Shown here: piece by piece, positions 3-11,081 of the stretch | Position numbering within the stretch: position 1 is the stretch's first letter | How the letters are laid out: the number at the start of each line of letters is the position of its first letter | Assembly: GCA_949292905.1 (NCBI GenBank) | Contig: CASFAV010000008.1 | Location: 41,332-105,331, forward strand | Length of the DNA: 64,000 nucleotides | Direction of reading: 5' to 3' | Source of the DNA: an uncultured Eubacteriales bacterium | GTDB taxonomy: Bacteria > Bacillota > Clostridia > Christensenellales > DTU072 | Program-made: the position numbers and the translations under genes | The notes under the pieces: generated by a model | Told to the model about the DNA's origin: nothing | The model's database searches: none | The model's input: the letters and a program-made list of their open reading frames with translations, nothing else

Positions 3-941
3 CTTTCGTTCAACCCGTTGTTTTTATACGGCGGCGTTGGACTCGGCAAGACTCACCTTCTTCATTCGATAGGCAATTACGTGAGCGAGCACCTTCCTCA
101 TCTGAAAGTGCTGTACACCCCTACCGAAAATCTCACCAACGATTACGTCGAAGCCATCTCCAACAACCGCACCGACAAGGGAGCCTTCAATCTCCACTCC
201 TTCCGCGAGAAATACCGCTCCGTCGACATGCTTATGTTAGACGACGTGCAATTCCTTCAGAAAAGGGTGGGACTCCAGGAAGTCGTATTCCATATATTCA
301 ACGATCTCTATCAGGCAGGCAAGCAGATAGTGCTCACGTCTGACAGACCGCCTTCGGAGATATCCACTCTCGAAGACCGTCTGCGTTCGAGATTCGAAGG
401 CGGACTTATAGCAGACATCGGGACCCCGAATCTCGAGATGAGGATCGCCATAATCCGCAAAAAGATGGTTCTCGAGAAAATCGCCGTCAACGACGAAGTA
501 GTCAATTATCTCGCCGAAAAGATCGATTCCAACATTCGCGAACTGGAAGGCTGTCTTGCCAAAGTGGTCTTTTACGCCAAGCTCAAAGGGCTTGCTTATC
601 CCGATCTCGAAACGGCGAAGGAAGCTCTCAAGAATACCGTTCAGAAAAAGACCGGCATCGATTCTTCCGACATAATTGCGGCGACGTGTTCATATTTCAA
701 CATATCGCAGGCTGACATAATAGGCAAGAAAAAGACCAAAAACCTCGTAGAAGCGAGGATGATAGCGATATACATAATCAACGACATGTTGTCCTTGCCG
801 CTCGTATCCATAGGTCAGATATTCGGCGGCAGAGATCACACGACCATAATACACGCAAGGGATAAAATAGCCGCTCTCATCAAGGAGAACGCCGAAACGG
901 CTAAAGCCGTAAAGGACATAAAAAACTCCCTCAACGCTTAA
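3..941 (+). CDS. dnaA: Chromosomal replication initiator DnaA (5'-truncated by window edge)
   Basis: Frame is open from the window edge: FNPLFLYGGVGLGKTHL (Walker A), LMLDDVQFL (Walker B), RLRSRF arginine finger, domain IV GGRDHTT. Confidence 0.99.
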   Translation, partial: LSFNPLFLYGGVGLGKTHLLHSIGNYVSEHLPHLKVLYTPTENLTNDYVEAISNNRTDKGAFNLHSFREKYRSVDMLMLDDVQFLQKRVGLQEVVFHIFNDLYQAGKQIVLTSDRPPSEISTLEDRLRSRFEGGLIADIGTPNLEMRIAIIRKKMVLEKIAVNDEVVNYLAEKIDSNIRELEGCLAKVVFYAKLKGLAYPDLETAKEALKNTVQKKTGIDSSDIIAATCSYFNISQADIIGKKKTKNLVEARMIAIYIINDMLSLPLVSIGQIFGGRDHTTIIHARDKIAALIKENAETAKAVKDIKNSLNA

Positions 942-1206
942 ATCAAACGACGCATTCCCCTTCTGAACGGAATAAAATTTCCTTTCGGAAAAATCGGATC
1001 CTCGTTAATCGACGCGCCATGTGTTTATGTGGACAATCCGTCAACATAAAATGCGGAGTTTATCAACATAGGCTAACCGAAAAAACCGCCTCTTATACTG
1101 TCATTCAGGTATAAAACGACGCCTTTTCGGTTACGGTAAAAAGTAATCCACAAACCCACAGCGTTTATTATAATAATTAAACTTAATTATATATAAGGAG
1201 AAGTAT
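942..1206. promoter_or_regulatory. oriC (dnaA-dnaN intergenic) with DnaA boxes and DNA unwinding element
   Basis: Near-consensus boxes TGTGGACAA (1028-1036) and TTATCAACA (1060-1068). Overlapping tandem boxes TAATCCACA/AAACCCACA (1144-1160) are followed by GCG and TTATTATAATAATTA trio-like repeats and an AT-rich tract, the same layout as the B. subtilis basal unwinding system. Confidence 0.85.
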
Positions 1207-2307
1207 ATGAAGTTCATCGCTAATTCTTTGGAGTTATCGGACGCATTGATAACAGTGAGCAAGGCAATATCCGGAAAAAGCAATATACCCATTCTCGAAG
1301 GAATAAAAATATCCGCAAGCGGAGACGAAGTGACGCTGTCCGCAACAGACCTCGAGCTTTTCATCGAAACGAGGATAAAAGCGAGCGTGAAAATGGAAGG
1401 CGAGACCGTCGTTACCGGAAAATTATTCACCGAATTCGTGAAAAAGCTCGTCGAAGTGGAAGAAATAGAGATAGAGAAGTATTCGACGTCGCTCGTAGTA
1501 AGGTATAACGGCAACGAGTCCGAATTCCAATGCATGGAAGACGACACCTATCCGGAGATAAAGACGGTGTCTGACGAGACGAGTTTTCTCGTGAGAGAAA
1601 GGGATCTGAAGGAAGCGATAGAAGGAGTCATATTCTGCGTTTCCACCGAGGAGACGAGACCTATCCTCAAAGGATGCCAGATAGCCGTAAAAGGCGAAGA
1701 ATTGACCTGTGCTGCGCTCGACGGATACAGACTCGGAATAACGAAGTGCGAAGTATTCAACCCTACCGGCGACGTGAGCATCGTAGTGCTCGGAAAGACT
1801 CTCAACGAAATAGTCAAGGTATTCGACGACAAAGAAGAAAAAGTGAAAGTAGCGGTGCAGAAAAACTACGTCATGTTCGATATGGCGCACACCAAGATAA
1901 TCACGAGGCTTCTGGAAGGCGATTTTATTCAATACGAAAAGATATTGCCGCAATCCAGAAATACCGAGATAGTGGTCAACAAGAACGCGCTTGAAGCAGG
2001 ACTCGACAGAGCTACGATCGTAGCGAAGAACAAGAAAAATTACCTTAAGATGAAATTCGAAGGGGGAAAAATAGAAATAAATTCCGCCTCAGAAGTGGGC
2101 AGGATCCGCGAAACCGTGGATTGTAAGCAGGAAGGTAAGGATATGGAGATAGCGTTCAATTCGAGGTATCTTTTCGATGCCTTCAACAGGATAAAGGAAG
2201 ATTTCATCAAAATCAATCTTACCGGCTCCAACGCGCCCGCCGTGATACTCCCCGTAGAAGGCGAAAAATACGTATATCTCGTGCTGCCGCTCAGAATGAT
2301 AGGCTGA
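1207..2307 (+). CDS. dnaN: DNA polymerase III beta sliding clamp
   Basis: 366 aa; IPILEGI, ATDLE, ALDGYRL, IAFNSRYL, YLVLPLR motifs; AAGGAG RBS; directly after dnaA. Confidence 0.99.
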   Translation: MKFIANSLELSDALITVSKAISGKSNIPILEGIKISASGDEVTLSATDLELFIETRIKASVKMEGETVVTGKLFTEFVKKLVEVEEIEIEKYSTSLVVRYNGNESEFQCMEDDTYPEIKTVSDETSFLVRERDLKEAIEGVIFCVSTEETRPILKGCQIAVKGEELTCAALDGYRLGITKCEVFNPTGDVSIVVLGKTLNEIVKVFDDKEEKVKVAVQKNYVMFDMAHTKIITRLLEGDFIQYEKILPQSRNTEIVVNKNALEAGLDRATIVAKNKKNYLKMKFEGGKIEINSASEVGRIRETVDCKQEGKDMEIAFNSRYLFDAFNRIKEDFIKINLTGSNAPAVILPVEGEKYVYLVLPLRMIG

Positions 2308-2341
2308 TAGGCATAAAGCGCCGGATAATAAAGAAACATAT

Positions 2342-2370
2342 AAATAACGCCTTAACGGGCGTTATTTTTT
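2342..2370 (+). terminator. Rho-independent terminator after dnaN
   Basis: AAATAACGCC-TTAACG-GGCGTTATTT hairpin followed by a T run. Confidence 0.8.
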
Positions 2371-2649
2371 ATACCGAAAGATATTACTACTTACCCGGAA
2401 AAGGCGGTAAGAAAAAGAAATAATGCGTAATAAATAAGCATTACGTTTACCGAAGATAATATCACACGCTTGCGTTTACCCGAAGGGAATATAATAATCT
2501 TTTCGTTTACCCGAAGAAAATAAAATAACCGGCATAACGGAAGGAATGAAAGAGCAATAGAAAGTAATCAATATAAAGAAAGCGGCATGAAATACACGTA
2601 TTAAAAGAGTAAATATATTCTCTTTTAATATGTCGAAAAGCAACGATTT

Positions 2650-2697
2650 TGTGGATAAGTATAGTGAGTTATCCACATTCAGATATAGTTATCAACA
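2650..2697. promoter_or_regulatory. DnaA-box cluster downstream of dnaN
   Basis: TGTGGATAA 2650-2658 and TTATCCACA 2669-2677 (both perfect), TTATCAACA 2689-2697. Confidence 0.8.
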
Positions 2698-3295
2698 TAA
2701 TAATATCGATTAATATTAAATACCCTAACGAGTGACGGTATGTTAAATATTGATATATACCGTTATTTATATCCGATAGGCGCGCGTATAACATATATAA
2801 GACGTGCCCTATTCTCTACGCACAAACGTAAAGCCTATTCATATACTTTATTCGGTCTATAAGAACAGTTAATATATCTGATCGGTTAGACTAAATATAT
2901 CTTGACGGATATAAGCACGTATGCGCGTAAGCTTTATTATAAATAACAATAATAGTTTTTGTTAAAGAATCGAAGCAGATCAGAATGTCGGTCGAGTCAA
3001 ACGAAATAATAATTATTCGGAATATTTCTGAATATAGAGCTGAACGAATCACTGAAAAAACTACCTATCCGTGATGAGTATATAACGTAGAATAAAACGA
3101 CTTCATTTATATTAATTATTTATGTCGATCGAATCATACACCATAAAAGTATGAGTGAGAACCGGATGAATTCTAATAGTTAACGCATATTCGGCAGATA
3201 TATAGTTAAGACGATCATAGTAATTGAGATACAATGTTATAGCGAAAATATATTATATTGATATAGAGTATGTGAAAATGTGGACAAATACATAT

Positions 3296-3311
3296 TGTTT
3301 CACGTGAAACA
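3296..3311. promoter_or_regulatory. parS site 1
   Basis: TGTTTCACGTGAAACA, perfect match to the ParB/Spo0J parS consensus. Confidence 0.93.
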
Positions 3312-3533
3312 GTATGAGTACTGCTCTTGTTAACGCCTATCGCACGCAGAATATACGATCAATATACTTTCCGGATATACATTTTTATATACAACAGAAA
3401 AAAGTCGCTGTCGGCTGATATATTGTAAATCAAATTTATATGTCTGTCTTTATGCTCCGAAAGTATCGGTTTATGGAGTATATTTCAGAATTTTTATAGA
3501 CATTACATTTGTAACAAGCGATTATTATGTGCA

Positions 3534-3549
3534 TGTTTCACGTGAAACA
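3534..3549. promoter_or_regulatory. parS site 2
   Basis: TGTTTCACGTGAAACA, perfect. Confidence 0.93.
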
Positions 3550-3708
3550 ATAGATTATTTTGAATACATTTACTGTATTATAATAATTTCAACTGCCATA
3601 GTGTATACGACGGAAATAAAATGCAATATAAAACGTATTGTACTTAAGGCAATGCGGTTATAGTTTGTAATATAAACATTGCATACCGCTTCAAGGGAGC
3701 TTGCCTTA

Positions 3709-3992
3709 TATTCTATTCACTGTGTGTAATGTCCGATTAATCTGAACCACTATTGCCCGAAATAAGGCGGTAGATATGCTGCAGTATTAAAGATTTGTGT
3801 TAATATCAGAACCGATACTCGGTCCTAATAGGAAACATAACGAAGAGAGCACTTTGTATTCTATTCACTGTATATAATGTCATAATTCAGCTTTAGACCA
3901 ATATCCGAAGTAAGCAGGAATATATACGGTTGTATTTGATATTTATATTAATATCGGAACCGATACTTTGTCCGAATCGGAAGCATAACGAA
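3709..3992. repeat. Degenerate tandem duplication, 148-bp period, two copies
   Basis: TATTCTATTCACTGT at 3709 and 3857; both copies end TTAATATC(A/G)GAACCGATACT...GGAA(A/G)CATAACGAA at 3844 and 3992. Confidence 0.85.
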
Positions 3993-4233
3993 ACCGATCG
4001 AAACCGATTTAACCTACATGTATGCTATCGGTCAAAATAATTTGATATATATCATAACATAAAGAGGATTAAATAACTCGTGAATCTATCGTGAATCGAA
4101 TGAAATTATTATCTAATAGCGGCGACTTTATGGCAGGTGATATGATTAAAATTATTTAACCGGTAATATATAAACGGAAAGCAATAACGAAACACGTATA
4201 TAGTTATCAATGCTTACACGTTGAAAACCTAAA

Positions 4234-4249
4234 TGTTTCACGTGGAACA
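4234..4249. promoter_or_regulatory. parS site 3
   Basis: TGTTTCACGTGGAACA, within the TGTTNCACGTGAAACA consensus on the reverse strand. Confidence 0.92.
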
Positions 4250-4370
4250 AAGGCACTTAATACGTTGTATACCCGATTATGTGCGGAACGTTGCATATAC
4301 AATTATTATTACAGTTGCGGAAATCGTCAGACCGGCTATAATTGCGGCAATGACAAATAAAAAGCGCCAA

Positions 4371-4386
4371 TGTTTCACGTGAAACA
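4371..4386. promoter_or_regulatory. parS site 4
   Basis: TGTTTCACGTGAAACA, perfect. Confidence 0.93.
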
Positions 4387-4886
4387 ACAACTGATAATAC
4401 AATAGAATCCACTATATATACGAAATTTGTAATGTAATATGAATATTTATGTTTTCATATTATCCGTTTACGAATATTCCATATTCTTATTATACTTCTA
4501 ATCTTATACGGCGACGGGTGCTATCAACCACAAAGTATATCAAATTAACCCGCTATGCCGCGACCGTATCATTATTCAAGATCAACGATATTTATCCTAT
4601 ATCGGAGATCATAACACCTATGCGGTTGATATCTTATTTGTCCACTTAAATAATTTACGCTTACGAAGTATCTTCGTTTGAATTAGTTATCTTCGATAGT
4701 GTGCATGTTCAACATTATGTGGGTGCGCCGCTTACCGTGAAGTTGAATGGATATTGAATATCGGATATACATGCGGAGTTGTCGACATGTCATTATTCTT
4801 TCCGTTCTTCCACATTATTGACGGCATATCTGAGAATTTATCTCTCAAATGGCGTAGCGGATCTATATATGCTTCGGAGTTTGTGA

Positions 4887-4902
4887 TGTTTCACGTGAGA
4901 CA
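4887..4902. promoter_or_regulatory. parS site 5 (one mismatch)
   Basis: TGTTTCACGTGAGACA. Confidence 0.8.
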
Positions 4903-5040
4903 GAGGAAATAGATATCTTTATATAACCGAAATATATAGCCCATATCGGTCATAATCAAAGTACAGCAAGTTATCTGACAGAAACTACGATATGACATAG
5001 GTGTATGCCGAAACAAGGGTAGTAGGTCCCGAACGGTAGA

Positions 5041-5056
5041 TGTTTCACGTGAAACA
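5041..5056. promoter_or_regulatory. parS site 6
   Basis: TGTTTCACGTGAAACA, perfect. Confidence 0.93.
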
Positions 5057-5139
5057 TATCCCGTATGAACGTTTTGTTCATATATCGTATTGGTTATTCA
5101 GTTATCGCAGATTCCTCAGCATAATGTGATTCGCAAGGT

Positions 5140-5155
5140 TGTTCCACGTGAAACA
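5140..5155. promoter_or_regulatory. parS site 7
   Basis: TGTTCCACGTGAAACA. Confidence 0.92.
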
Positions 5156-6534
5156 ATGTATAAAATATGTATAAAATAGTCGCAATATACGATTATGATT
5201 AAGAATATATTATATTTATCTTTATTACAGCGTTAATATTGGATATGAGATATCGCTATATATAGTCCGTCCGGACTTACTGCGAGTCGTCAAACGCTTA
5301 ATAACGTAATAAGCTATGACGCCGTTTTGCATAATAAAGCGATTCTTTCCGAGTACCGGTTCGCCGGTCATACCGTCATATATGTTGGGTATCCGCGCCA
5401 TACGGCAGAACTTACGATATTTACACTGAGTATGCGAACACGGATCGCTGCTGTCGTTATACCGCTCGTTACGCCCGTTGATTGAGTTCGGTATAGGTAT
5501 GTCCGTAAGCGCGTCCGCCTTTCCTTTCGGCGGTACTCCGAGTCAGATAGAGATATCTTTCTACTCGCGTATGTTTGTGGAAAGTAAACGTAGCTTTTAC
5601 GCACGTTGTATAAGCCGTCAGTGCGGCATAACGGACGACGGCACTTCATCTACGGAGTCGGCAACGCGCACTGTGGGCTTTCCTGCGCCTTCTGAAGGGC
5701 GGATCCGTGTGCAATATAGATATTCTGTTTTGTCATGACAGTAAGTCAGGCGCCCGGATTGTATTTCCGAAAGCTATACCGTATTCCGTACCGTGTCGCC
5801 CGATCGTATCGGCATCGGTATCGCTTATTCCGATTCAGGGAGCGCAGAGGATAGAGTCGGAATGTTCTGGGAGTTTATCTCGTTCACGTACACGCCTACT
5901 GTTCCGATAGGGTAAGAATCAAGTATTGAAGTTTACCGTAACGGCGGTATAGCCTGTGCACATCCATAGACCGCGCACGATGATGTCGCCCGCGCCGTAC
6001 GCTCTTAAACCGACACTTCAGACCGCTTTGTATACGCCTTCGATATATCCGTACGTAGAAAGTTTTGAGCTGACGTTAAGCGATACGAGGAATGCGACGG
6101 TATACTTAAAGACGATGCTTTAGCGAAAGAACGGATTTATAGTAAAACAAAAGGTGAACTACTCGGTTTGACATAGGCGGTGGAGGTTTCAAAAAGCGCG
6201 CCGTGCCCAAAAGCCGTTGAAACGGTTTATATGGATCCGCGAGCTCGGCAAAGGACAAACGTAAGTATACGGGGTGAAGGAAACTTTGTGAGTGTCGCGA
6301 AGCGGCGAAGGGATAAAGGCACAGCCGAAGCGACGTCGCGGATGATGAATAAAGCGGCATTTATTACGACAGGGGAGAACGGTGGGTAATGCGGGCTCGG
6401 TAAGCGCCTGTTACGGTGCGGAAAGAAATTCAGCTTGCTGCTCCCGTGCGGTGCGGTCAATACATGCGGGAAGCAATAAGTCTGATCGGGCTGTCTTGTT
6501 CGATACCATGTCGATATCGGAGAGATAATTCGAG

Positions 6535-6859
6535 TTGTCCACATAAATCCGGTTTTCCGAAACGATAGGTAGTAAAAACGACGGTTTCAAGCCCGAAAAG
6601 CGGAATAAGCTTTGCAATATAGTGCGAAGTTGTCCACATAAAAGAATTTGCGAGCAAGCTCCGCCTATAGGCGCGTCAAGACCGTAAACGTGCAAAGAAG
6701 GTAGGGATAAGAAGGCAGACAGAACGTCATTCGATATGTGGGAGCATTCGTATATAGGTTGAATCGCGGCGCATATCGCCGGAGTGATCATAAACAAGCC
6801 GCAATAATGTAAAAAAACAGGCAGGAAAAGCGGGAGAAAAGAATAAAAAATGTGGATAA
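6535..6859. promoter_or_regulatory. Dispersed DnaA boxes
   Basis: TTGTCCACA 6535-6543 and 6630-6638; perfect TGTGGATAA 6851-6859. Confidence 0.6.
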
Positions 6860-6866
6860 CTCAAAA

Positions 6867-6882
6867 TGTTTCACGTGAAACA
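6867..6882. promoter_or_regulatory. parS site 8
   Basis: TGTTTCACGTGAAACA, perfect; 7 bp from a perfect DnaA box. Confidence 0.93.
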
Positions 6883-7452
6883 ACGCATATCGGCAGGCAC
6901 ATTTCGACAAAATCAAAATATATTTTACGCAAGAAAATTGCAAAATACAGAAGAAAACAGATAAAAAATAACAGATTAAAAGCGAATGTGTTTTCATTTA
7001 CGGTGTGGAGAAAGCGGGTGATAAAAAGGATAAGGAGCGAGAGAAGAGATGCTTTGGAGAGCTCGCGGAGAAGTTCGAGGCAGGTGAGCGCGGGAGTCGT
7101 GAACTGGCACTATATCGACGCAACGCATGCGGCGTGGCTGTAGATAGTTGTCGAGCGGTAAATGCGGTGATCGGCGCGGGCGGGAGAGGACGAGAGGCCA
7201 GAGTGCAGAGTTAGAAGGCGGTCGGCGTGTACCTGCGCCTGTGGGCGTCCGATGTTCCATATGGAACGCATAAAAAACAGGGAGAAAGGAGCCGTTTTGC
7301 CCGGATAAAATAAAGGGGTCGTCCCGAAAAATTCCCGAGCGCAAAAGCGTCGGAAAAAGCCTTAATTCGCTCAAAATAAGCCAAAAAATGCACGTTTTTG
7401 GGGGTGAAAAGGGGCTGTAGAAAACTTCTTCCGAATATTATAAAGAGATAAG

Positions 7453-7468
7453 TGTTCCACGTGGAACA
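7453..7468. promoter_or_regulatory. parS site 9
   Basis: TGTTCCACGTGGAACA, perfect palindrome. Confidence 0.9.
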
Positions 7469-8013
7469 TAAATTTCGGCAGAAAAACCCACTAAAAATAT
7501 CCTTGTTTTAAGCAGATTTTGTAAAACGCTTGATTTTGTATTGTTTGCTACGGTATTGCGAAAATGTCCTGTTTATGGGACAGCAATTCGGGCGGATTTT
7601 TGCAGATTTTCGGCAGTATTTTTTTTACGAAAAAAAGCAGAAACTTTCCTTTTCGAGTTAGACCGTCGCCGTCGGTCGGGGGAAAGCTTACATTACGGCT
7701 TCCTTTTTCCGCCTTTTCCGGGCGGCGCGTATCGGAACCGACGTGTACGTTTGACTGTAGCAGACTTTGCCCGCACGGCGAAACCGCGAACGGCGTTTCT
7801 TGTCGGCGTGATTTTTCGGTCGCGTTTTTTTGCGTATTCGCTATCCCCGTAAGGCTTCGTCTTGGGGCAACGTAACGCCCGAGTTTACGCCTGCCGCGTA
7901 CTCGGTCGGCGTTGCACGATTTTTATGTCGGTTGCCGAAAACTCTTCTTCGCGCGCGAAGGCTTTTATGAAAAAGCGCCCCGTGAAGGGCGCCGTTTATT
8001 TCCGACGACGGCT

Positions 8014-9321
8014 TCATTCGAAGCAGAGGATCCCCAACGCTTCCTTATATATTTCGTACATTCTGCGGAACGAGTCGAGCGGTATGCGTTCGTCGCGCAT
8101 GTGGATATACGACTTTTCGCCCGGAAATATCGGGCCGAACGCCACCCCGCACGGAAGTACTCTCGCGTATGTCGCTCCCCCTATCGCTATGGGGCGGGCG
8201 TCTTTGTCGCCGGTCACGTTCTTGTACGCCGTAAGCAGTCCCTTTACGAGCGGGTGATCTTCGGGAACGTAAAGGGGATCGTGGAAGTTTTTGAGCGTGA
8301 TATGCGCTTCGGGTAGGGCTTTTGCGAGTTTAGCGGCTATTTCGTCGCGCGACGCGGTTATCGGGTAGCGGATATCGGTATCGACCACGAGCCTTTCGCC
8401 TTCCGTTCTTGCCGCTCCCGCGTTCAGCGTAAGCGCTCCCGACTCTTTGTCGGAGCAGGCTATTCCCGCGCCGGAGCCGTCGCTTGCGGAAAATACTTTG
8501 CACAGCTTCTTTGCGTATCCCGACGTTACGGAGAGTATCGTAAGCATCGCGGTCAGGGCGTTGACGCCGCTTTCGGGAGAACTGCCGTGCGCGCTCACTC
8601 CGCGAGTCACTATCCTGAGGACGTTACCGTCCCGCTCAGTTTCCGCTCCCGCGTCGCGCGCGGCTTGTTCGAGCTCGACGGAATATTCCGCTTCCGCCAC
8701 GGCGTGATCGGGCACGATATTGGCGCGCGTTCCCGAATTAAGATAAAGAAGTCCTTTCGGAAGGGGCAGTTCCGCCGAAAAGAACGCCACGCCCTTTTCG
8801 CAGTTGATGACGGGGAAGTCGGCGTCGGGCGAAAATCCTTCCGCAGGCATTTCTTCGCGCGCCCTGTAGGCGTCCATACATTTCCAGCCGCTTTCTTCGT
8901 TGGTGCCGAGGATAAAGCGGAGACGTTTTTTTGGTTTGCGCCCTTCGTCGAGAAGCTCGAGCGCGGCAAAGAACGCGGCTACGGCGGGGCCCTTGTCGTC
9001 TTCCGCGCCACGCCCCCAAACGGCGTCTCCGTCAATTTCGCCGCCGAACGGATCGTGGCTCCAACCCTCGGTAACGGGTACCACGTCAAGGTGACTCAGT
9101 ATCCCGAAAAGCGGTTTATCTTTCTCGCCGATCTCCGCGTAACCGTAATATCCGTCGCCGTTGAACGTGCGGAAACCGTTGTTTTCCATAACGCCGAGCA
9201 TGTAATTCAAGGCGTTTGCGACGCCTTTCCCGAAAGGCGCGCCGCAGGCGGGCTCGCCCTCAACGGAATCGAAACGCAGTAATTCCCGAAGACATTTCAC
9301 GGCTTCGTCGAAGCGATCCAT
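8014..9321 (-). CDS. pepV: M20 family dipeptidase (PepV/Sapep-like)
   Basis: SHLDVVP, GRGAEDDKGP, GTNEESG, PDADFPVINCEKG, GGATYAR, H-x-x-DE motifs; GGAGG RBS. Confidence 0.9.
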   Translation of the reverse strand: MDRFDEAVKCLRELLRFDSVEGEPACGAPFGKGVANALNYMLGVMENNGFRTFNGDGYYGYAEIGEKDKPLFGILSHLDVVPVTEGWSHDPFGGEIDGDAVWGRGAEDDKGPAVAAFFAALELLDEGRKPKKRLRFILGTNEESGWKCMDAYRAREEMPAEGFSPDADFPVINCEKGVAFFSAELPLPKGLLYLNSGTRANIVPDHAVAEAEYSVELEQAARDAGAETERDGNVLRIVTRGVSAHGSSPESGVNALTAMLTILSVTSGYAKKLCKVFSASDGSGAGIACSDKESGALTLNAGAARTEGERLVVDTDIRYPITASRDEIAAKLAKALPEAHITLKNFHDPLYVPEDHPLVKGLLTAYKNVTGDKDARPIAIGGATYARVLPCGVAFGPIFPGEKSYIHMRDERIPLDSFRRMYEIYKEALGILCFE

Positions 9322-9454
9322 ATTACCTCCTTAACCCTTTTGCGGGGAAAATTATATAAATATTATACACACTTCGGCGCGGATGTGTTATTATTTATTT
9401 CGTAAAGCGGTAAGGAATTACGGCGAAAATTGTAAACGGAGCGGGAAAAGCCGA

Positions 9455-10207
9455 ATGGGAGCGGGCAGAAGACAACGAATGAGGGAAAAGGTGCATCTTA
9501 ACGGGATAGCGGGGCTTGCGCAACACGAGATACTGGAATTTCTGCTCTACCCGTACGTGCCGCAGAAGGATACCGTGCCGATAGCGCACGCGCTTCTTGA
9601 GGAATTCGGCACTCTCGACAACGTGTTGCACGCGACGGAAGAAGCTTTGCTCACGGTAGCGGGGATGCCCAAACTCGCGGCGCTCACGTTCCCGCAATTC
9701 CGTCACATAGTTGCCCGCGCCGCAGCCGACGCCGCCGCAGACTGCGGCAAGATCACGGACGCCGTTTCGGCGGCGAAGTATTTCAACGCGATGATAGGCG
9801 GCGAGAAGGTGGAAAAGACGGTCGCGGTATTCCTTACGAACAGGGGCAAGATCATCTGTGCCCGCGAGCTCAACTCCGGCACGCCCGTGGAAACGGACGT
9901 GGAGATACGCAAGATAGCTTCCGCCGCACTCAATACCAACGCCGCGGCGGTCATATTGGGGCACAATCATCCTTCGGGCGACGTGACGCCGTCGGAAGCG
10001 GATATATCGAGCACCGAATTTCTCGGGAAAATATTGCGCCCGTTGGGCGTGGCGCTTCTCGATCACCTCGTAGTGTCCGGGAACAAGTATCACAGCATGC
10101 TGCGAGGAGGCTCCTTCGGGGCGCGCCCGGACAGGGGCTCGCTCAACGAAGCAGGAGCGCCGTTCACGTACGATACCGGAGACAAAGAGCGGATATCCGA
10201 TGACTGA
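9455..10207 (+). CDS. radC: RadC family JAB-domain protein
   Basis: GRRQRMREK N-terminus, HEILEFLL, intact HNHPSGDVTPSEAD JAB motif, LLDHLVV. Start set at in-frame ATG 9455. Confidence 0.9.
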   Translation: MGAGRRQRMREKVHLNGIAGLAQHEILEFLLYPYVPQKDTVPIAHALLEEFGTLDNVLHATEEALLTVAGMPKLAALTFPQFRHIVARAAADAAADCGKITDAVSAAKYFNAMIGGEKVEKTVAVFLTNRGKIICARELNSGTPVETDVEIRKIASAALNTNAAAVILGHNHPSGDVTPSEADISSTEFLGKILRPLGVALLDHLVVSGNKYHSMLRGGSFGARPDRGSLNEAGAPFTYDTGDKERISDD

Positions 10208-10236: not shown

Positions 10237-10956
10237 CTATTTGAGGGAAGAGGAGATATATTCGTTGACCGAGCGCGCCACTACGTAAGCGAGCGTGCGG
10301 CGGTAGCCGTCGTCAGTCAAAAGTTTTTCGTCTTCCGGATTGGACAGGAAGCCGCATTCCACTATCGCGGAAGGGTAAGAAGTGCAGTTCAGGATGTAAT
10401 AATCGCCGCCCAAAGCGGAATATGTCCTGCCGGTATTGTCCGAATTGAGCTTATTGAGCGCGTTCTGCACCGTCGAAGCGAGCGCTTTCCCCTCCGTCGA
10501 GCCCGCGGAATAGAATACCTGCGCGCCCCTTCTCGAAGAGGAAGGGAAGTTGTTGCAATGTATGCTTATAACGCACAGAGGTCGTGTCGCCGCGATGACG
10601 TCGCGGCGCCTTTGCATCTCCTCGCGTTTATTGTACAGCGCCGCTTCTTCGCTCTCTTTCACCGTGCCGGCTTCGCCTTCGTCGTTGCGGGTGAGCACCG
10701 TTTCGTATCCCAGAGCGTTCAGCTCGCTTGCGACGAGTCGGGCAACCGTAAGATTGATTTCGGCTTCCGTAACTCCGGTATTTACGCCCGTGACGCCGCC
10801 GTCGGCGCCGCCGTGCCCGGCGTCTACGACCACGACTTTGCGTACCCCGGGCGAATACGCCGCGGCGATGGCGAAACCGAGCGCCGTAAGCACCGCCGCG
10901 ACGAGAAGGACTATCGCCGTTGTCCACAACACTTTTTTTCTGATGACGATCATCAT
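10237..10956 (-). CDS. N-acetylmuramoyl-L-alanine amidase (Amidase_3, CwlD-like germination amidase)
   Basis: N-terminal TM segment; [43 protein letters not shown]. Confidence 0.9.
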
Positions 10957-11040
10957 AGCGTTCTCCGTTGCGCCCGAAGGTTTCCTGTCCGATATCCGTC
11001 GGGCGCCTTTAAGTCATATTTCGACAATCTCCGCAAGAGG

Positions 11041-11081
11041 TTATCCACAAAGAGGGAGGCTTTTCCACAGAGTTGTCCACA
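11041..11081. promoter_or_regulatory. DnaA-box cluster upstream of rpmH
   Basis: TTATCCACA 11041-11049 (perfect), TTTTCCACA 11061-11069, TTGTCCACA 11073-11081, all in one orientation. Confidence 0.8.

What the first reader, a model, noticed from the sequence alone, without database searches (positions are those of the whole stretch)
2308..8013. 5.7-kb gene-free, centromere-like island beside oriC holding nine parS sites
Seen: no credible CDS between dnaN and pepV. Positions 2300-5300 are much AT-richer than the flanking genes (two hand-counted 60-bp lines gave 27% and 42% GC, versus 48% and 62% in mnmE). Nine parS palindromes (3296, 3534, 4234, 4371, 4887, 5041, 5140, 6867, 7453) fall within 4.2 kb, seven of them within 1.9 kb. 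Known: ParB/Spo0J loads at parS, spreads over kilobases, loads SMC and can silence promoters; in B. subtilis parS sites are scattered widely around the origin region, some within genes. Inference: this lineage may keep a dedicated non-coding regional centromere next to the origin, where the sites are conserved while the spacers drift and genes are excluded by ParB spreading.
Basis: partly seen in the sequence, partly recalled or inferred. Interest (0 to 1): 0.85.

Follow-up and report, generated by a model that had tools for sequence, protein, structure and literature searches.

The report
Origin region holding all parS sites
A 5.7-kb stretch with no genes next to the replication genes of an uncultured gut Clostridia bacterium carries every chromosome-partition (parS) site of the genome together with the likely replication origin, an unusually large and concentrated version of a known arrangement in a lineage that has lost the ParA partition motor.

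Summary
Window 2308-8013 has no credible gene. It holds nine parS palindromes, eight exact and one with a single mismatch, and the 1.95-Mb assembly has no other site at up to one mismatch. It is the longest ORF-free stretch in the genome, at 5712 bp against 2475 bp for the next. Contigs from three other studies cover it.

The island does not merely lie beside oriC. A DnaA-box trio with a palindrome at 2596-2697, conserved across the genus, lies inside it, and the cumulative GC-skew minimum falls there.

The block dnaA-dnaN-[DnaA boxes + parS array]-pepV is shared by other genera of the family with gaps of 1.2-1.8 kb. The gap is 4.4-6 kb only in part of this genus. Spacers do not align even where flanks are 75-88% identical.

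The family has one Spo0J-type ParB and SMC. No ParA or Noc was found.

Best reading: a combined origin and ParB-loading zone, probably for SMC loading. Gene exclusion by ParB spreading is untested. I rate it a new variant of a known kind, of moderate interest.

The parts
3..941 (+). 3' part of dnaA (the window starts inside the gene)
   Evidence: Pfam Bac_DnaA 3.6e-49 and Bac_DnaA_C 6.4e-24. The full frame is C8:40875-42269.
1028..1152 (.). Three one-mismatch DnaA boxes in the dnaA-dnaN spacer
   Evidence: boxes at 1028, 1060 and 1144.
1207..2307 (+). dnaN (beta clamp)
   Evidence: Three DNA_pol3_beta Pfam domains, E 2e-32 to 3e-27.
2342..2367 (+). Terminator-like hairpin after dnaN, followed on the + strand by a run of T
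   Evidence: Hairpin listed. The T run was read from the sequence.
2470..2528 (.). 31-bp tandem repeat, one copy missing in another strain
   Evidence: Repeat family D9. A contig of run X5 skips 31 bases between 2472 and 2504.
2596..2633 (.). Conserved palindrome (AAAAGAG..CTCTTTT) beside the DnaA boxes
   Evidence: Inverted repeat I20. The core TTCTCT is invariant in 8 of 8 genus sequences.
2650..2697 (.). DnaA-box trio (two perfect inverted boxes and TTATCAACA): likely oriC core, followed by AT-rich DNA
   Evidence: for the boxes. Alignment A1 shows conservation in G021, G016, G005, G004 and G015, and partial conservation in G001 and G018. This is the only stretch of the left part that aligns across the genus. 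The cumulative GC-skew minimum falls in the 5-kb bin that contains it.
2400..5300 (.). AT-rich non-coding part (about 33% GC) with seven parS sites
3296..3311 (.). parS 1, exact
3534..3549 (.). parS 2, exact
3706..3992 (.). 148-bp tandem duplication (two copies, 77-89% alike), one copy missing in another strain
   Evidence: Repeat families D4 and D8. A contig of run X5 skips 148 bases between 3708 and 3857.
4234..4249 (.). parS 3, exact
4371..4386 (.). parS 4, exact
4887..4902 (.). parS 5, one mismatch
5041..5056 (.). parS 6, exact
5140..5155 (.). parS 7, exact
   Evidence: The site and about 60 bases of flank align with G021.
5400..7950 (.). Non-coding part of ordinary GC (about 48%), purine-rich on the + strand, with two parS sites and four DnaA-like boxes (6535, 6630, 6851, 7004)
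   Evidence: No Pfam or homologue hits. Indels of 1-2 bases occur among strains. Only 6572-6999 and 7252-7596 align, at about 70%, and only with the close relatives G019 and G021.
6867..6882 (.). parS 8, exact
7253..7268 (.). Degenerate parS-like palindrome (three mismatches)
7453..7468 (.). parS 9, exact (TGTTCCACGTGGAACA): the pepV-proximal site, kept at that position in relatives
   Evidence: The same or a one-mismatch site type lies next to pepV in G016, G021, G015, G005, G004, G061, G056 and G041.
7974..7993 (-). Terminator-like hairpin after the dipeptidase gene (also reads as a hairpin on the + strand)
8014..9321 (-). M20 dipeptidase (PepV/Sapep-like), transcribed toward the island
   Evidence: Pfam Peptidase_M20. 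NCBIfam TIGR01887 at 395 bits.

Best explanation
The interval is the chromosome's origin region. It is a non-coding spacer between two genes that point into it, dnaN and the dipeptidase gene, each followed by a terminator-like hairpin.

Its dnaN end carries the likely oriC core: a conserved palindrome, three DnaA boxes and AT-rich DNA. The rest carries the genome's only parS array, nine sites spaced 99-1727 bp apart.

The single Spo0J-type ParB, encoded elsewhere on contig C4, would load at these sites as a CTP-dependent clamp and spread over the whole island, including the DnaA boxes. No ParA or Noc was found. The complex therefore most likely recruits SMC and organises or individualises newly replicated origins, as in the ParA-less Streptococcus pneumoniae. 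It is unlikely to be pulled by a ParA gradient.

The block dnaA-dnaN-oriC/parS-pepV is old in the family. The multi-kb size is a later expansion in part of this genus, at least partly by tandem duplication.

Shown here: the sites, their exclusivity, the non-coding status, the conservation, the DnaA-box element, the GC-skew minimum, the ParB and SMC genes, and the failure to find ParA. Inferred: ParB binding, spreading, SMC loading and origin firing at the trio.
For: Sites and exclusivity:
- Nine sites against 0.10 expected by chance.
- No other site at up to one mismatch in the genome.
- All 17 half-sites in the island belong to the nine full sites.

Non-coding status:
- The longest ORF is 128 aa.
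- 0 of 16 gap ORFs tested, from G000, G021 and G019, had a Pfam match above its gathering threshold. The only hit reported was a weak one to Amelin (E 0.014, 14.9 bits against a 25-bit cut-off).
- No homologue was found for the 128-aa ORF.
- tblastn with 7187 own-genome ORFs and with relatives' ORFs hit only the flanking gene ends or gave multi-frame DNA-level echoes.
- No Rfam family or tRNA.
- Indels of 1-2 bases occur among strains.

Origin:
- The cumulative GC-skew minimum lies at C8 40-45 kb.
- 16 of the window's 25 DnaA boxes lie in the first 11.1 kb.
- No boxes lie upstream of dnaA.
- The trio and palindrome are conserved in 8 of 8 genus loci aligned. In G001 and G018 the island lies upstream of dnaA instead.
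- The only k-mers shared by the ten islands beyond shuffled controls are parS, DnaA boxes and the palindrome.

Conservation:
- 13 of 22 genus genomes have four or more sites in one cluster.
- ORF-free gaps are 4.4-6.0 kb in G016, G021, G012, G001, G013 and G018, and 1.5-2.0 kb in G004, G005 and G015.
- The same synteny, with gaps of 1.2-1.8 kb, is seen in G061, G066 and G056.

Proteins:
- ParB has the ParB_N and HTH_ParB domains and the GERRYRA motif.
- It is closer to the Spo0J-position paralogue of other families than to the noc-position one: 209-241 bits against 138-142 bits.
- SMC is present.
- The only ParA-like hit is MinD.
- AAA_31 scores 51-66 bits in 24 of the 25 family genomes sampled (G019 had no hit at the threshold). 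In 15 of 16 other families it scores 221-251 bits, in a gene next to parB.

Independent assemblies: contigs from three other studies cover the gap at about 97% identity and bridge both borders.
Against: - There is no binding, expression or replication data. No RNA run holding the stretch was listed, which says nothing either way.
- The oriC assignment rests on motifs, synteny and skew only. Three weaker boxes also lie between dnaA and dnaN, and another cluster lies at 10920-11081, so the unwinding site could be elsewhere or the origin could be bipartite.
- Five of 22 genus genomes showed no site at up to one mismatch. Three of them are 96% complete by marker genes. Either the region is unassembled there or their sites have diverged.
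- In G001 the island is on a different contig from dnaN, so adjacency to dnaN is not universal, although it lies next to dnaA there.
- The genome is a 16-contig assembly rated 99% complete, so a ParA gene in unassembled DNA cannot be excluded absolutely.
Confidence: 0.72

Rival explanations
1. The parS sites and DnaA boxes are functional, but the multi-kb size has no function. On this view the spacers are neutral DNA that accumulated by tandem duplication and decay between interspersed essential sites. The absence of genes simply reflects a convergent intergenic region that needs no promoters. ParB spreading plays no part in excluding genes.
For: - Other genera of the family manage with 1.2-1.8 kb and 4-6 sites. 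Part of the genus manages with 1.5-2.0 kb and 5 sites.
- The 148-bp and 31-bp tandem repeats differ in copy number between strains.
- Spacers do not align, and no shared motif other than parS, DnaA boxes and the palindrome was found.
- The left part is AT-richer than most other ORF-free gaps, as expected from unconstrained drift.
- A review passage reports no effect of Spo0J loss on genes next to parS in B. subtilis.
Against: - Gaps of 4.4-6 kb persist in at least seven species of two subclades with different neighbours, on the dnaN side or upstream of dnaA.
- The gap is more than twice the next ORF-free stretch in a compact 1.95-Mb genome.
- The distances of the first four sites from pepV are nearly the same in G000 and G021 although the spacers do not align.
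- Site number tends to rise with gap length: 3-6 sites in gaps of 1.1-3 kb, against 6-9 in gaps of 4.4-6 kb.
Confidence: 0.4
2. The interval is a decayed prophage, plasmid insertion or pseudogene block that happens to carry parS sites.
For: The left part is AT-rich relative to the genome. The right part has gene-like GC and strand skew.
Against: - No blastn match in 50,697 phage records or 72,556 plasmid records.
- No significant protein-level similarity for any gap ORF tested.
- No paralogue-derived relic.
- No similar DNA elsewhere in 61 family genomes, apart from close relatives at the same place.
- The position between dnaN and pepV is syntenic across genera.
- The search methods would miss very old relics.
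Confidence: 0.05
3. The gap hides unannotated small genes or a long non-coding RNA, and is therefore not gene-free.
For: - More promoter-like sites than in shuffles: 31 against a mean of 17.6. This is expected in AT-rich DNA.
- Two stretches, 6572-6999 and 7252-7596, are about 70% conserved with G019 and G021.
- ORFs of 164-243 aa (stop to stop) exist in the equivalent part of G021.
Against: - No Rfam match at E up to 1.
- The G021 and G019 ORFs have no Pfam family above threshold and no counterpart frames in G000.
- 1-base indels among strains fall in the 7541-7875 ORFs.
- Similarity to relatives appears in several frames on both strands, which indicates DNA-level rather than protein-level conservation.
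Confidence: 0.1
4. The interval is an assembly artefact or chimeric join.
For: The genome is a metagenome-type assembly. The parS repeats act as branch points in assembly graphs, and many loose ends fall at the sites.
Against: - Contigs from runs of other studies cover the interval. X6 covers 2182-4288, 4509-7298 and 7422-10000. X7 covers 5041-8716. X5 covers 1998-2904 and 4594-6049.
- A second sample of the same study (X2) matches with 0-1 differences.
- Both borders are bridged.
- Relatives G016, G012 and G001 show the same architecture within single contigs.
Confidence: 0.01

Closest known systems
ParA-less ParB-parS-SMC systems of Streptococcus pneumoniae and Staphylococcus aureus (review passages read in PMC7333895, and PMC7022226)
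   Same: An orphan parB, origin-proximal parS sites and SMC are present, with no ParA. ParB-parS is thought to serve SMC recruitment and origin organisation.
   Different: [quoted passage not shown] Here there are nine sites in one 4.2-kb span inside a single 5.7-kb gene-free spacer that also holds the DnaA-box trio. Function here is inferred only.
Corynebacterium glutamicum parS cluster (passages read in PMC7083940)
   Same: All ten consensus sites lie in one origin-proximal cluster, and nine of the ten are intergenic. ParB-parS loads SMC.
   Different: That cluster spans 35 kb with genes in between, lies 73 kb from oriC and works with ParA. Here the span is 4.2 kb, no gene lies between the sites, the DnaA boxes lie inside the island, and no ParA was found.
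Myxococcus xanthus parS array (passages read in PMC3778016)
   Same: A dense array of many parS sequences (24) lies in one region near the origin.
   Different: That array lies upstream of parAB, about 30 kb from ori, with an essential ParABS system. Whether it is gene-free I could not see, because figures are not held.
Pseudomonas aeruginosa parS1-4 (abstract of PMC10419367 in the listing; review passage)
   Same: The ParB nucleoprotein complex around a small parS cluster overlaps oriC.
   Different: There are four sites among genes, and ParA is present. ParB there represses some neighbouring promoters rather than sitting in a gene desert.
Overlapping origin and centromere-like regions of Deinococcus radiodurans secondary replicons (abstracts only, listing)
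   Same: One cis region binds both DnaA and ParB.
   Different: Those are arrays of direct repeats upstream of parAB on secondary replicons. Here it is the main chromosome, the sites are canonical parS palindromes, and parB is encoded elsewhere.
Bacillus subtilis origin region (review passage; the rest recalled)
   Same: The same 16-bp parS consensus, a Spo0J-type ParB, SMC loading at parS, and DnaA-box clusters around dnaA-dnaN.
   Different: B. subtilis has about ten sites spread over hundreds of kb, several of them inside genes (recalled). It has Soj and Noc, and its oriC flanks dnaA (recalled).

Membership tests
Chromosomal parS (ParB/Spo0J binding site) | 16-bp palindrome matching TGTTNCACGTGNAACA | tested here: met
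   Eight exact sites and one with a single mismatch. The consensus itself was taken from the finding and is recalled as the Firmicutes-type parS.
Chromosomal parS (ParB/Spo0J binding site) | Origin-proximal position | tested here: met
   The sites lie 1-5 kb from dnaN and dnaA, at the cumulative GC-skew minimum of contig C8.
Chromosomal parS (ParB/Spo0J binding site) | A cognate ParB with an N-terminal CTP-binding domain and an HTH domain is encoded in the genome | tested here: met
   PF02195 and PF17762, the GERRYRA motif, single copy at C4. It is closer to the Spo0J-position paralogue than to the noc-position one.
Chromosomal parS (ParB/Spo0J binding site) | ParB binds the sites and spreads from them | not testable with these tools
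   This needs ChIP-seq or in vitro binding.
Complete ParABS partition system | A ParA/Soj ATPase partner | tested here: not met
   The only AAA_31 hit above cut-off is MinD (TIGR01968, 256 bits). Soj proteins of two related families hit only the MinD locus. The sampled genomes of the family score 51-66 bits, against 221-251 bits in 15 of 16 other families.
ParB-parS-SMC origin organisation | An SMC condensin is present | tested here: met
   An SMC hinge (93 bits) lies in a 1242-aa frame on C16. ScpA and ScpB were not searched for.
Bacterial oriC | A cluster of DnaA boxes | tested here: met
   Two perfect boxes and one with a single mismatch at 2650-2697, conserved across the genus and in other genera downstream of dnaN.
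Bacterial oriC | An AT-rich unwinding element next to the boxes | tested here: inconclusive
   The DNA to the right of the third box is AT-rich in all the aligned relatives. No defined repeat element was identified, and DnaA-trios were judged by eye only.
Bacterial oriC | A strand-skew switch and linkage to dnaA/dnaN | tested here: met
   for the skew. The island lies next to dnaN in G000, and next to dnaA in G001, G013 and G018.
Bacterial oriC | Initiation of replication at this place | not testable with these tools
   This needs marker-frequency analysis or an autonomous-replication assay.
Plasmid-type iterated centromere (regular tandem repeats, as in F sopC; recalled) | Head-to-tail repeats of constant period | tested here: not met
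   The spacings are 238, 700, 137, 516, 154, 99, 1727 and 586 bp, and the flanks are unrelated.

The most novel reading that the evidence does not exclude
After losing ParA and Noc, this lineage moved its parS sites from beside parB into the origin spacer. In part of one genus the spacer was then enlarged into a true regional, transcription-free ParB platform. On this reading the length and the site number of the island are selected. The multi-kb track between two convergent terminators would hold a large pool of sliding ParB-CTP clamps that covers the DnaA boxes. One nucleoprotein body would then couple initiation, SMC loading and origin separation, compensating for the missing ParA motor. 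Genes would be kept out because transcription and ParB occupancy interfere with each other.
Probability: 0.2. Interest if true: 0.75.

Novelty: new variant of a known kind. Interest (0 to 1): 0.55.

Why it matters
A review of the field lists as open questions why parS numbers vary when one site suffices, why the sites lie close together, and what drives their clustering (passage read in PMC7333895).

This family offers a natural series that bears on those questions. Related families with ParA have one to three exact sites beside parB. The ParA-less family has four to six sites in a 1.2-1.8 kb spacer downstream of dnaN that also holds DnaA boxes. Some species of one genus have six to nine sites in 4.4-6 kb of gene-free DNA.

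If the spacer length matters, this would be the clearest bacterial case of a dedicated non-coding centromere-like region fused to the origin. If it does not, it is a rare example of several kb of tolerated junk DNA at the most sensitive place of a small genome. Either outcome is informative, but both need experiments.

In the two literature searches aimed at this point I found no description of a multi-kb gene-free parS island that contains oriC. Only open-access papers and preprints are covered by those searches.

Tried and rejected
Gene relics:
- Pfam was run on 16 ORFs from the gap and its equivalents in G021 and G019. The only hit was a weak sub-threshold one to Amelin, which I take as chance.
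- The search for homologous proteins on the 128-aa ORF scored nothing. Only proteins of 70-224 aa were candidates.
- tblastn of relatives' ORFs and of 7187 own-genome ORFs gave only hits to the flanking gene ends, weak chance-level hits, and multi-frame echoes of DNA similarity with close relatives.

Mobile DNA: blastn in 'distant' mode against the phage and plasmid collections gave no match.

RNA: Rfam at E up to 1 gave nothing and there are no tRNAs.

Expression: no RNA holder was listed for the stretch. Run X7, labelled RNA-Seq, is probably DNA according to the tool. I make no statement on expression.

Further motifs: a k-mer comparison of ten islands found nothing beyond parS, DnaA boxes and the palindrome. 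One 10-mer pair, TCCCGAAAAA/AATTTTTCGG, was shared by 6 islands, which is at the level of the shuffled controls.

Considered and dropped:
- A Noc/NBS reading: the sites are canonical parS and the protein is closer to the Spo0J-position paralogue.
- A regular iterated plasmid-type centromere: the spacings are irregular.
- A Spo0A-box reading of TGTCGAA near 2631: it is not conserved in alignment A1.

Not done:
- No RNA-structure test of 7252-7596, because only three sequences were available.
- No search for ScpA or ScpB.
- No structure or complex prediction, which I judged uninformative for this question.
- Supplementary files of papers were closed. The parS tables of the papers cited may hold details that I could not see, for example whether the Myxococcus array is gene-free.

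Full report
OBSERVATION

A scan for TGTTNCACGTGNAACA finds nine sites in the 64-kb window, at 3296, 3534, 4234, 4371, 4887, 5041, 5140, 6867 and 7453. Eight are exact and 4887 has one mismatch. Chance expects 0.10 sites, and none of 100 shuffles reached nine.

The window lies at C8:41332-105331 of a 1,945,084-bp assembly of 16 contigs, rated 99% complete. A script scan of the whole assembly finds no further site at up to one mismatch. It finds only two unrelated two-mismatch hits, on C3 and C14.

Between dnaN (1207-2307, +) and an M20 dipeptidase gene of the PepV/Sapep type (8014-9321, -), no ORF exceeds 128 aa. The stretch without any stop-to-stop frame of 150 aa or more is 5712 bp. That is the longest in the genome, and the next is 2475 bp.

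GC is 29-37% over 2400-5200 and 43-54% over 5400-8000. The genes to the right are at 50-61%. The left part, at 33.3% GC, lies near the low end of 123 other ORF-free gaps, whose median is 43.7% and 5th percentile 31.6%. The right part, at 48.2%, lies above their median.

IS THE GAP REALLY NON-CODING AND REAL?

- Sixteen ORFs from the gap and from the equivalent parts of two relatives have no Pfam family above threshold. The single reported hit is a weak chance-level one.
- The longest ORF has no homologue among proteins of 70-224 aa in the large protein collection.
- tblastn with all 7187 own-genome frames of 90 aa or more hits only the ends of dnaN and pepV, plus weak chance-level matches.
- ORFs from relatives' loci give the same result, plus similarity in several frames on both strands to the close relatives G021 and G019. 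That pattern is what DNA-level conservation looks like.
- There is no Rfam family at E up to 1 and no tRNA.
- There is no blastn match in the phage or plasmid collections.
- No similar DNA occurs elsewhere in 61 genomes of the family (G000 included), apart from G019 and G016 at the same place and short parS flanks.
- Contigs of metagenome runs from three other studies cover the gap at about 97% identity. X6 covers 2182-4288, 4509-7298 and 7422-10000. X7 covers 5041-8716. X5 covers 1998-2904 and 4594-6049. They bridge both borders.
- A second sample of the probable source study matches with 0-1 differences.
- Those strains differ by 1-2-base indels at many places between 4728 and 8015. One strain lacks a copy of the 31-bp repeat (2470-2528) and a copy of the 148-bp repeat (3706-3992).

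The gap is therefore real and non-coding, and its length changes by tandem duplication or deletion.

WHAT ELSE IS IN IT

The cumulative GC skew of contig C8 has its minimum in the 40-45 kb bin, which is window -1330 to 3670.

Sixteen of the 25 DnaA boxes (up to one mismatch) in the window lie in the first 11.1 kb:
- three between dnaA and dnaN;
- two perfect inverted boxes and TTATCAACA at 2650-2697;
- single boxes at 3279, 6535, 6630, 6851, 7004, 8100 and 9363;
- a cluster of four at 10920-11081.

No box lies in the 7 kb upstream of dnaA.

Against the closest relatives the flanks align at 75-88% identity, but the gap does not. The exceptions are 2600-2706, the parS sites with a few flanking bases, 5139-5216, 6572-6999 and 7252-7596.

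The 2600-2706 element also aligns with the distant genus members G005 and G004. An eight-species alignment shows a conserved palindrome (AAAAGAG...ATTCTCTTTTAA), followed by TGTGGATAA, TTATCCACA and GTTATCAACA, and then by AT-rich DNA.

A k-mer comparison of ten islands finds nothing shared beyond shuffled controls except parS, DnaA boxes and this palindrome. All 17 half-sites in the island belong to the nine full sites. One three-mismatch palindrome lies at 7253.

I read the 2596-2697 element as the oriC core. This is an inference from motifs, synteny and skew.

RELATIVES

The closest named records are uncultured Clostridia MAGs. The holders of the stretch are bird, chicken and other gut metagenomes.

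Within the genus, 17 of 22 genomes, G000 included, have sites at up to one mismatch. Thirteen have four or more in a single cluster. Five have none, three of them rated 96% complete.

ORF-free gaps and site counts within the genus:

| Genome | Gap | Sites (≤1 mismatch) | Note |
|---|---|---|---|
| G016 | 4.5 kb | 8 | |
| G021 | at least 5.4 kb | 8 | contig end |
| G012 | 5.6 kb | 6 | |
| G001 | 6.0 kb | 7 | |
| G013 | at least 6 kb | 9 | split over two contig ends |
| G018 | at least 4.4 kb | 6 | contig end |
| G015 | 2.0 kb | 5 | |
| G005 | 1.5 kb | 5 | |
| G004 | 1.7 kb | 5 | |

In G001 the gene next to the island is dnaA, with the island upstream of it. G013 and G018 share the same gene order beside the island, which I read as the same arrangement. 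In all three, dnaN lies on another contig.

In G004, G005 and G015 a gene lies between dnaN and the island. Its G005 copy is a DNA polymerase IV gene.

In other genera of the family the same block is present: dnaA, dnaN, a DnaA-box trio, a parS array and a convergent pepV. The gaps are small: G061 1.6 kb with 6 sites, G066 1.8 kb with 4 and G056 1.2 kb with 4. G047 has 5 sites in about 3 kb next to pepV.

In the sampled genomes of other families of the order, one to three exact sites lie within a few kb of parB.

THE PROTEINS

G000 has one ParB-family gene (C4, 294 aa) between rsmG and gltX. It has the ParB_N and HTH_ParB domains and the GERRYRA motif.

It aligns over its full length, at 209-241 bits, with the paralogue that follows soj in other families. 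It aligns over only 180-210 aa, at 138-142 bits, with the paralogue that follows rsmG there. It is therefore a Spo0J-type ParB, and noc and soj are missing.

The only AAA_31 hit above cut-off in G000 is MinD (NCBIfam equivalog, 256 bits). Soj proteins of two related families hit only that locus.

Of the 25 family genomes sampled, 24 score 51-66 bits on AAA_31 and G019 had no hit at the threshold. Fifteen of the 16 other families score 221-251 bits, in a gene next to parB. That ParA was lost in the family is inferred from this comparison.

SMC is present.

HOW IT MOST LIKELY WORKS

dnaN and pepV both point into the island, and each is followed by a terminator-like hairpin. No promoter is therefore needed inside.

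ParB would load at the nine sites and spread over the few kb between the terminators, including the DnaA boxes. Without ParA, the likely outputs are SMC loading and origin organisation, as reviewed for S. pneumoniae and S. aureus.

Whether the multi-kb length and the absence of genes are selected, or are tolerated junk between interspersed essential sites, cannot be decided here.

For selection:
- the large size persists in at least seven species of two subclades;
- the distances of the first four sites from pepV are nearly equal in G000 (561, 1147, 2874, 2973) and G021 (627, 1231, 2869, 2978), although the spacers do not align.

For junk:
- the 1.2-2 kb versions exist elsewhere in the family;
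- tandem repeat copy numbers differ between strains;
- the spacers carry no shared motifs.

COMPARISON AND NOVELTY

Origin-proximal parS clusters are well known:
- ten sites in 35 kb in C. glutamicum, nine of them intergenic;
- 24 sites upstream of parAB in M. xanthus;
- a four-site cluster whose ParB complex overlaps oriC in P. aeruginosa.

ParA-less ParB-parS-SMC systems are known too.

What differs here is the combination. Every site of the genome lies in one spacer. That spacer also carries the likely oriC core. It has grown to 4.4-6 kb of gene-free DNA, the largest such stretch in a small genome. And it lies in a family in which neither ParA nor Noc was found.

My searches turned up no description of this combination. 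They cover only open-access papers and preprints.

I rate it a new variant of a known kind, with interest 0.55.

LIMITS

- All functional statements are inferences.
- Most relatives are fragmented MAGs.
- Kin are not independent, and the loss of ParA is a single event, so no statistics are offered.

Noticed in passing
window 10920-11081; also L028 8038-8177, L027 12075-12107, L029 3803-3835, L031 12700-12744, L030 9250-9282: A second DnaA-box cluster (three to four boxes, spaced about 12 and 20 bp in several genomes) lies 1-3 kb beyond the dipeptidase gene in G000 and in five other genera or species of the family. It could be the other half of a bipartite origin or a regulatory DnaA-box cluster.
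   Followed up: partly
G000 C4:244.7-246.4 kb (L023 8752-10393), and family-wide: parB directly follows rsmG. The noc-soj pair that lies between them in other families of the order is missing. No ParA-level AAA_31 score was seen in any of the 25 family genomes sampled, against 15 of 16 other families.
   Followed up: yes
L019 (G001), L020 and L021 (G013), L022 (G018), L012 (G005), L013 (G004): In these sister species none of the clustered sites is a perfect consensus. All carry one mismatch, often in the central CG or at position 6 (for example CACATG, CACGTT or TTTAAC). This may reflect a shifted or relaxed ParB specificity.
   Followed up: no
window 2470-2528 and 3706-3992: A 31-bp and a 148-bp tandem repeat each lack one copy in a strain from another study (run X5). 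The island's length is therefore polymorphic within the species.
   Followed up: partly
window 2596-2633, and alignment A1: A palindrome (AAAAGAG, 7-9 bases, CTCTTTT) just left of the DnaA-box trio is conserved in all eight genus loci aligned, including those where the island lies upstream of dnaA. It may be a binding site for an unknown origin factor or a hairpin.
   Followed up: partly
window 6000-7400: The + strand is strongly purine-rich (GC skew 0.15-0.34, AT skew up to 0.35) although no gene could be found. The parts at 6572-6999 and 7252-7596 are about 70% conserved with G019 and G021 only.
   Followed up: partly
G001: C3:50996-55107 (island and dnaA) against C8:48941-50035 (dnaN): In G001, G013 and G018, dnaA and dnaN lie on different contigs, and the parS island lies upstream of dnaA. 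The origin region has therefore been rearranged within the genus, and the island stayed with dnaA.
   Followed up: partly
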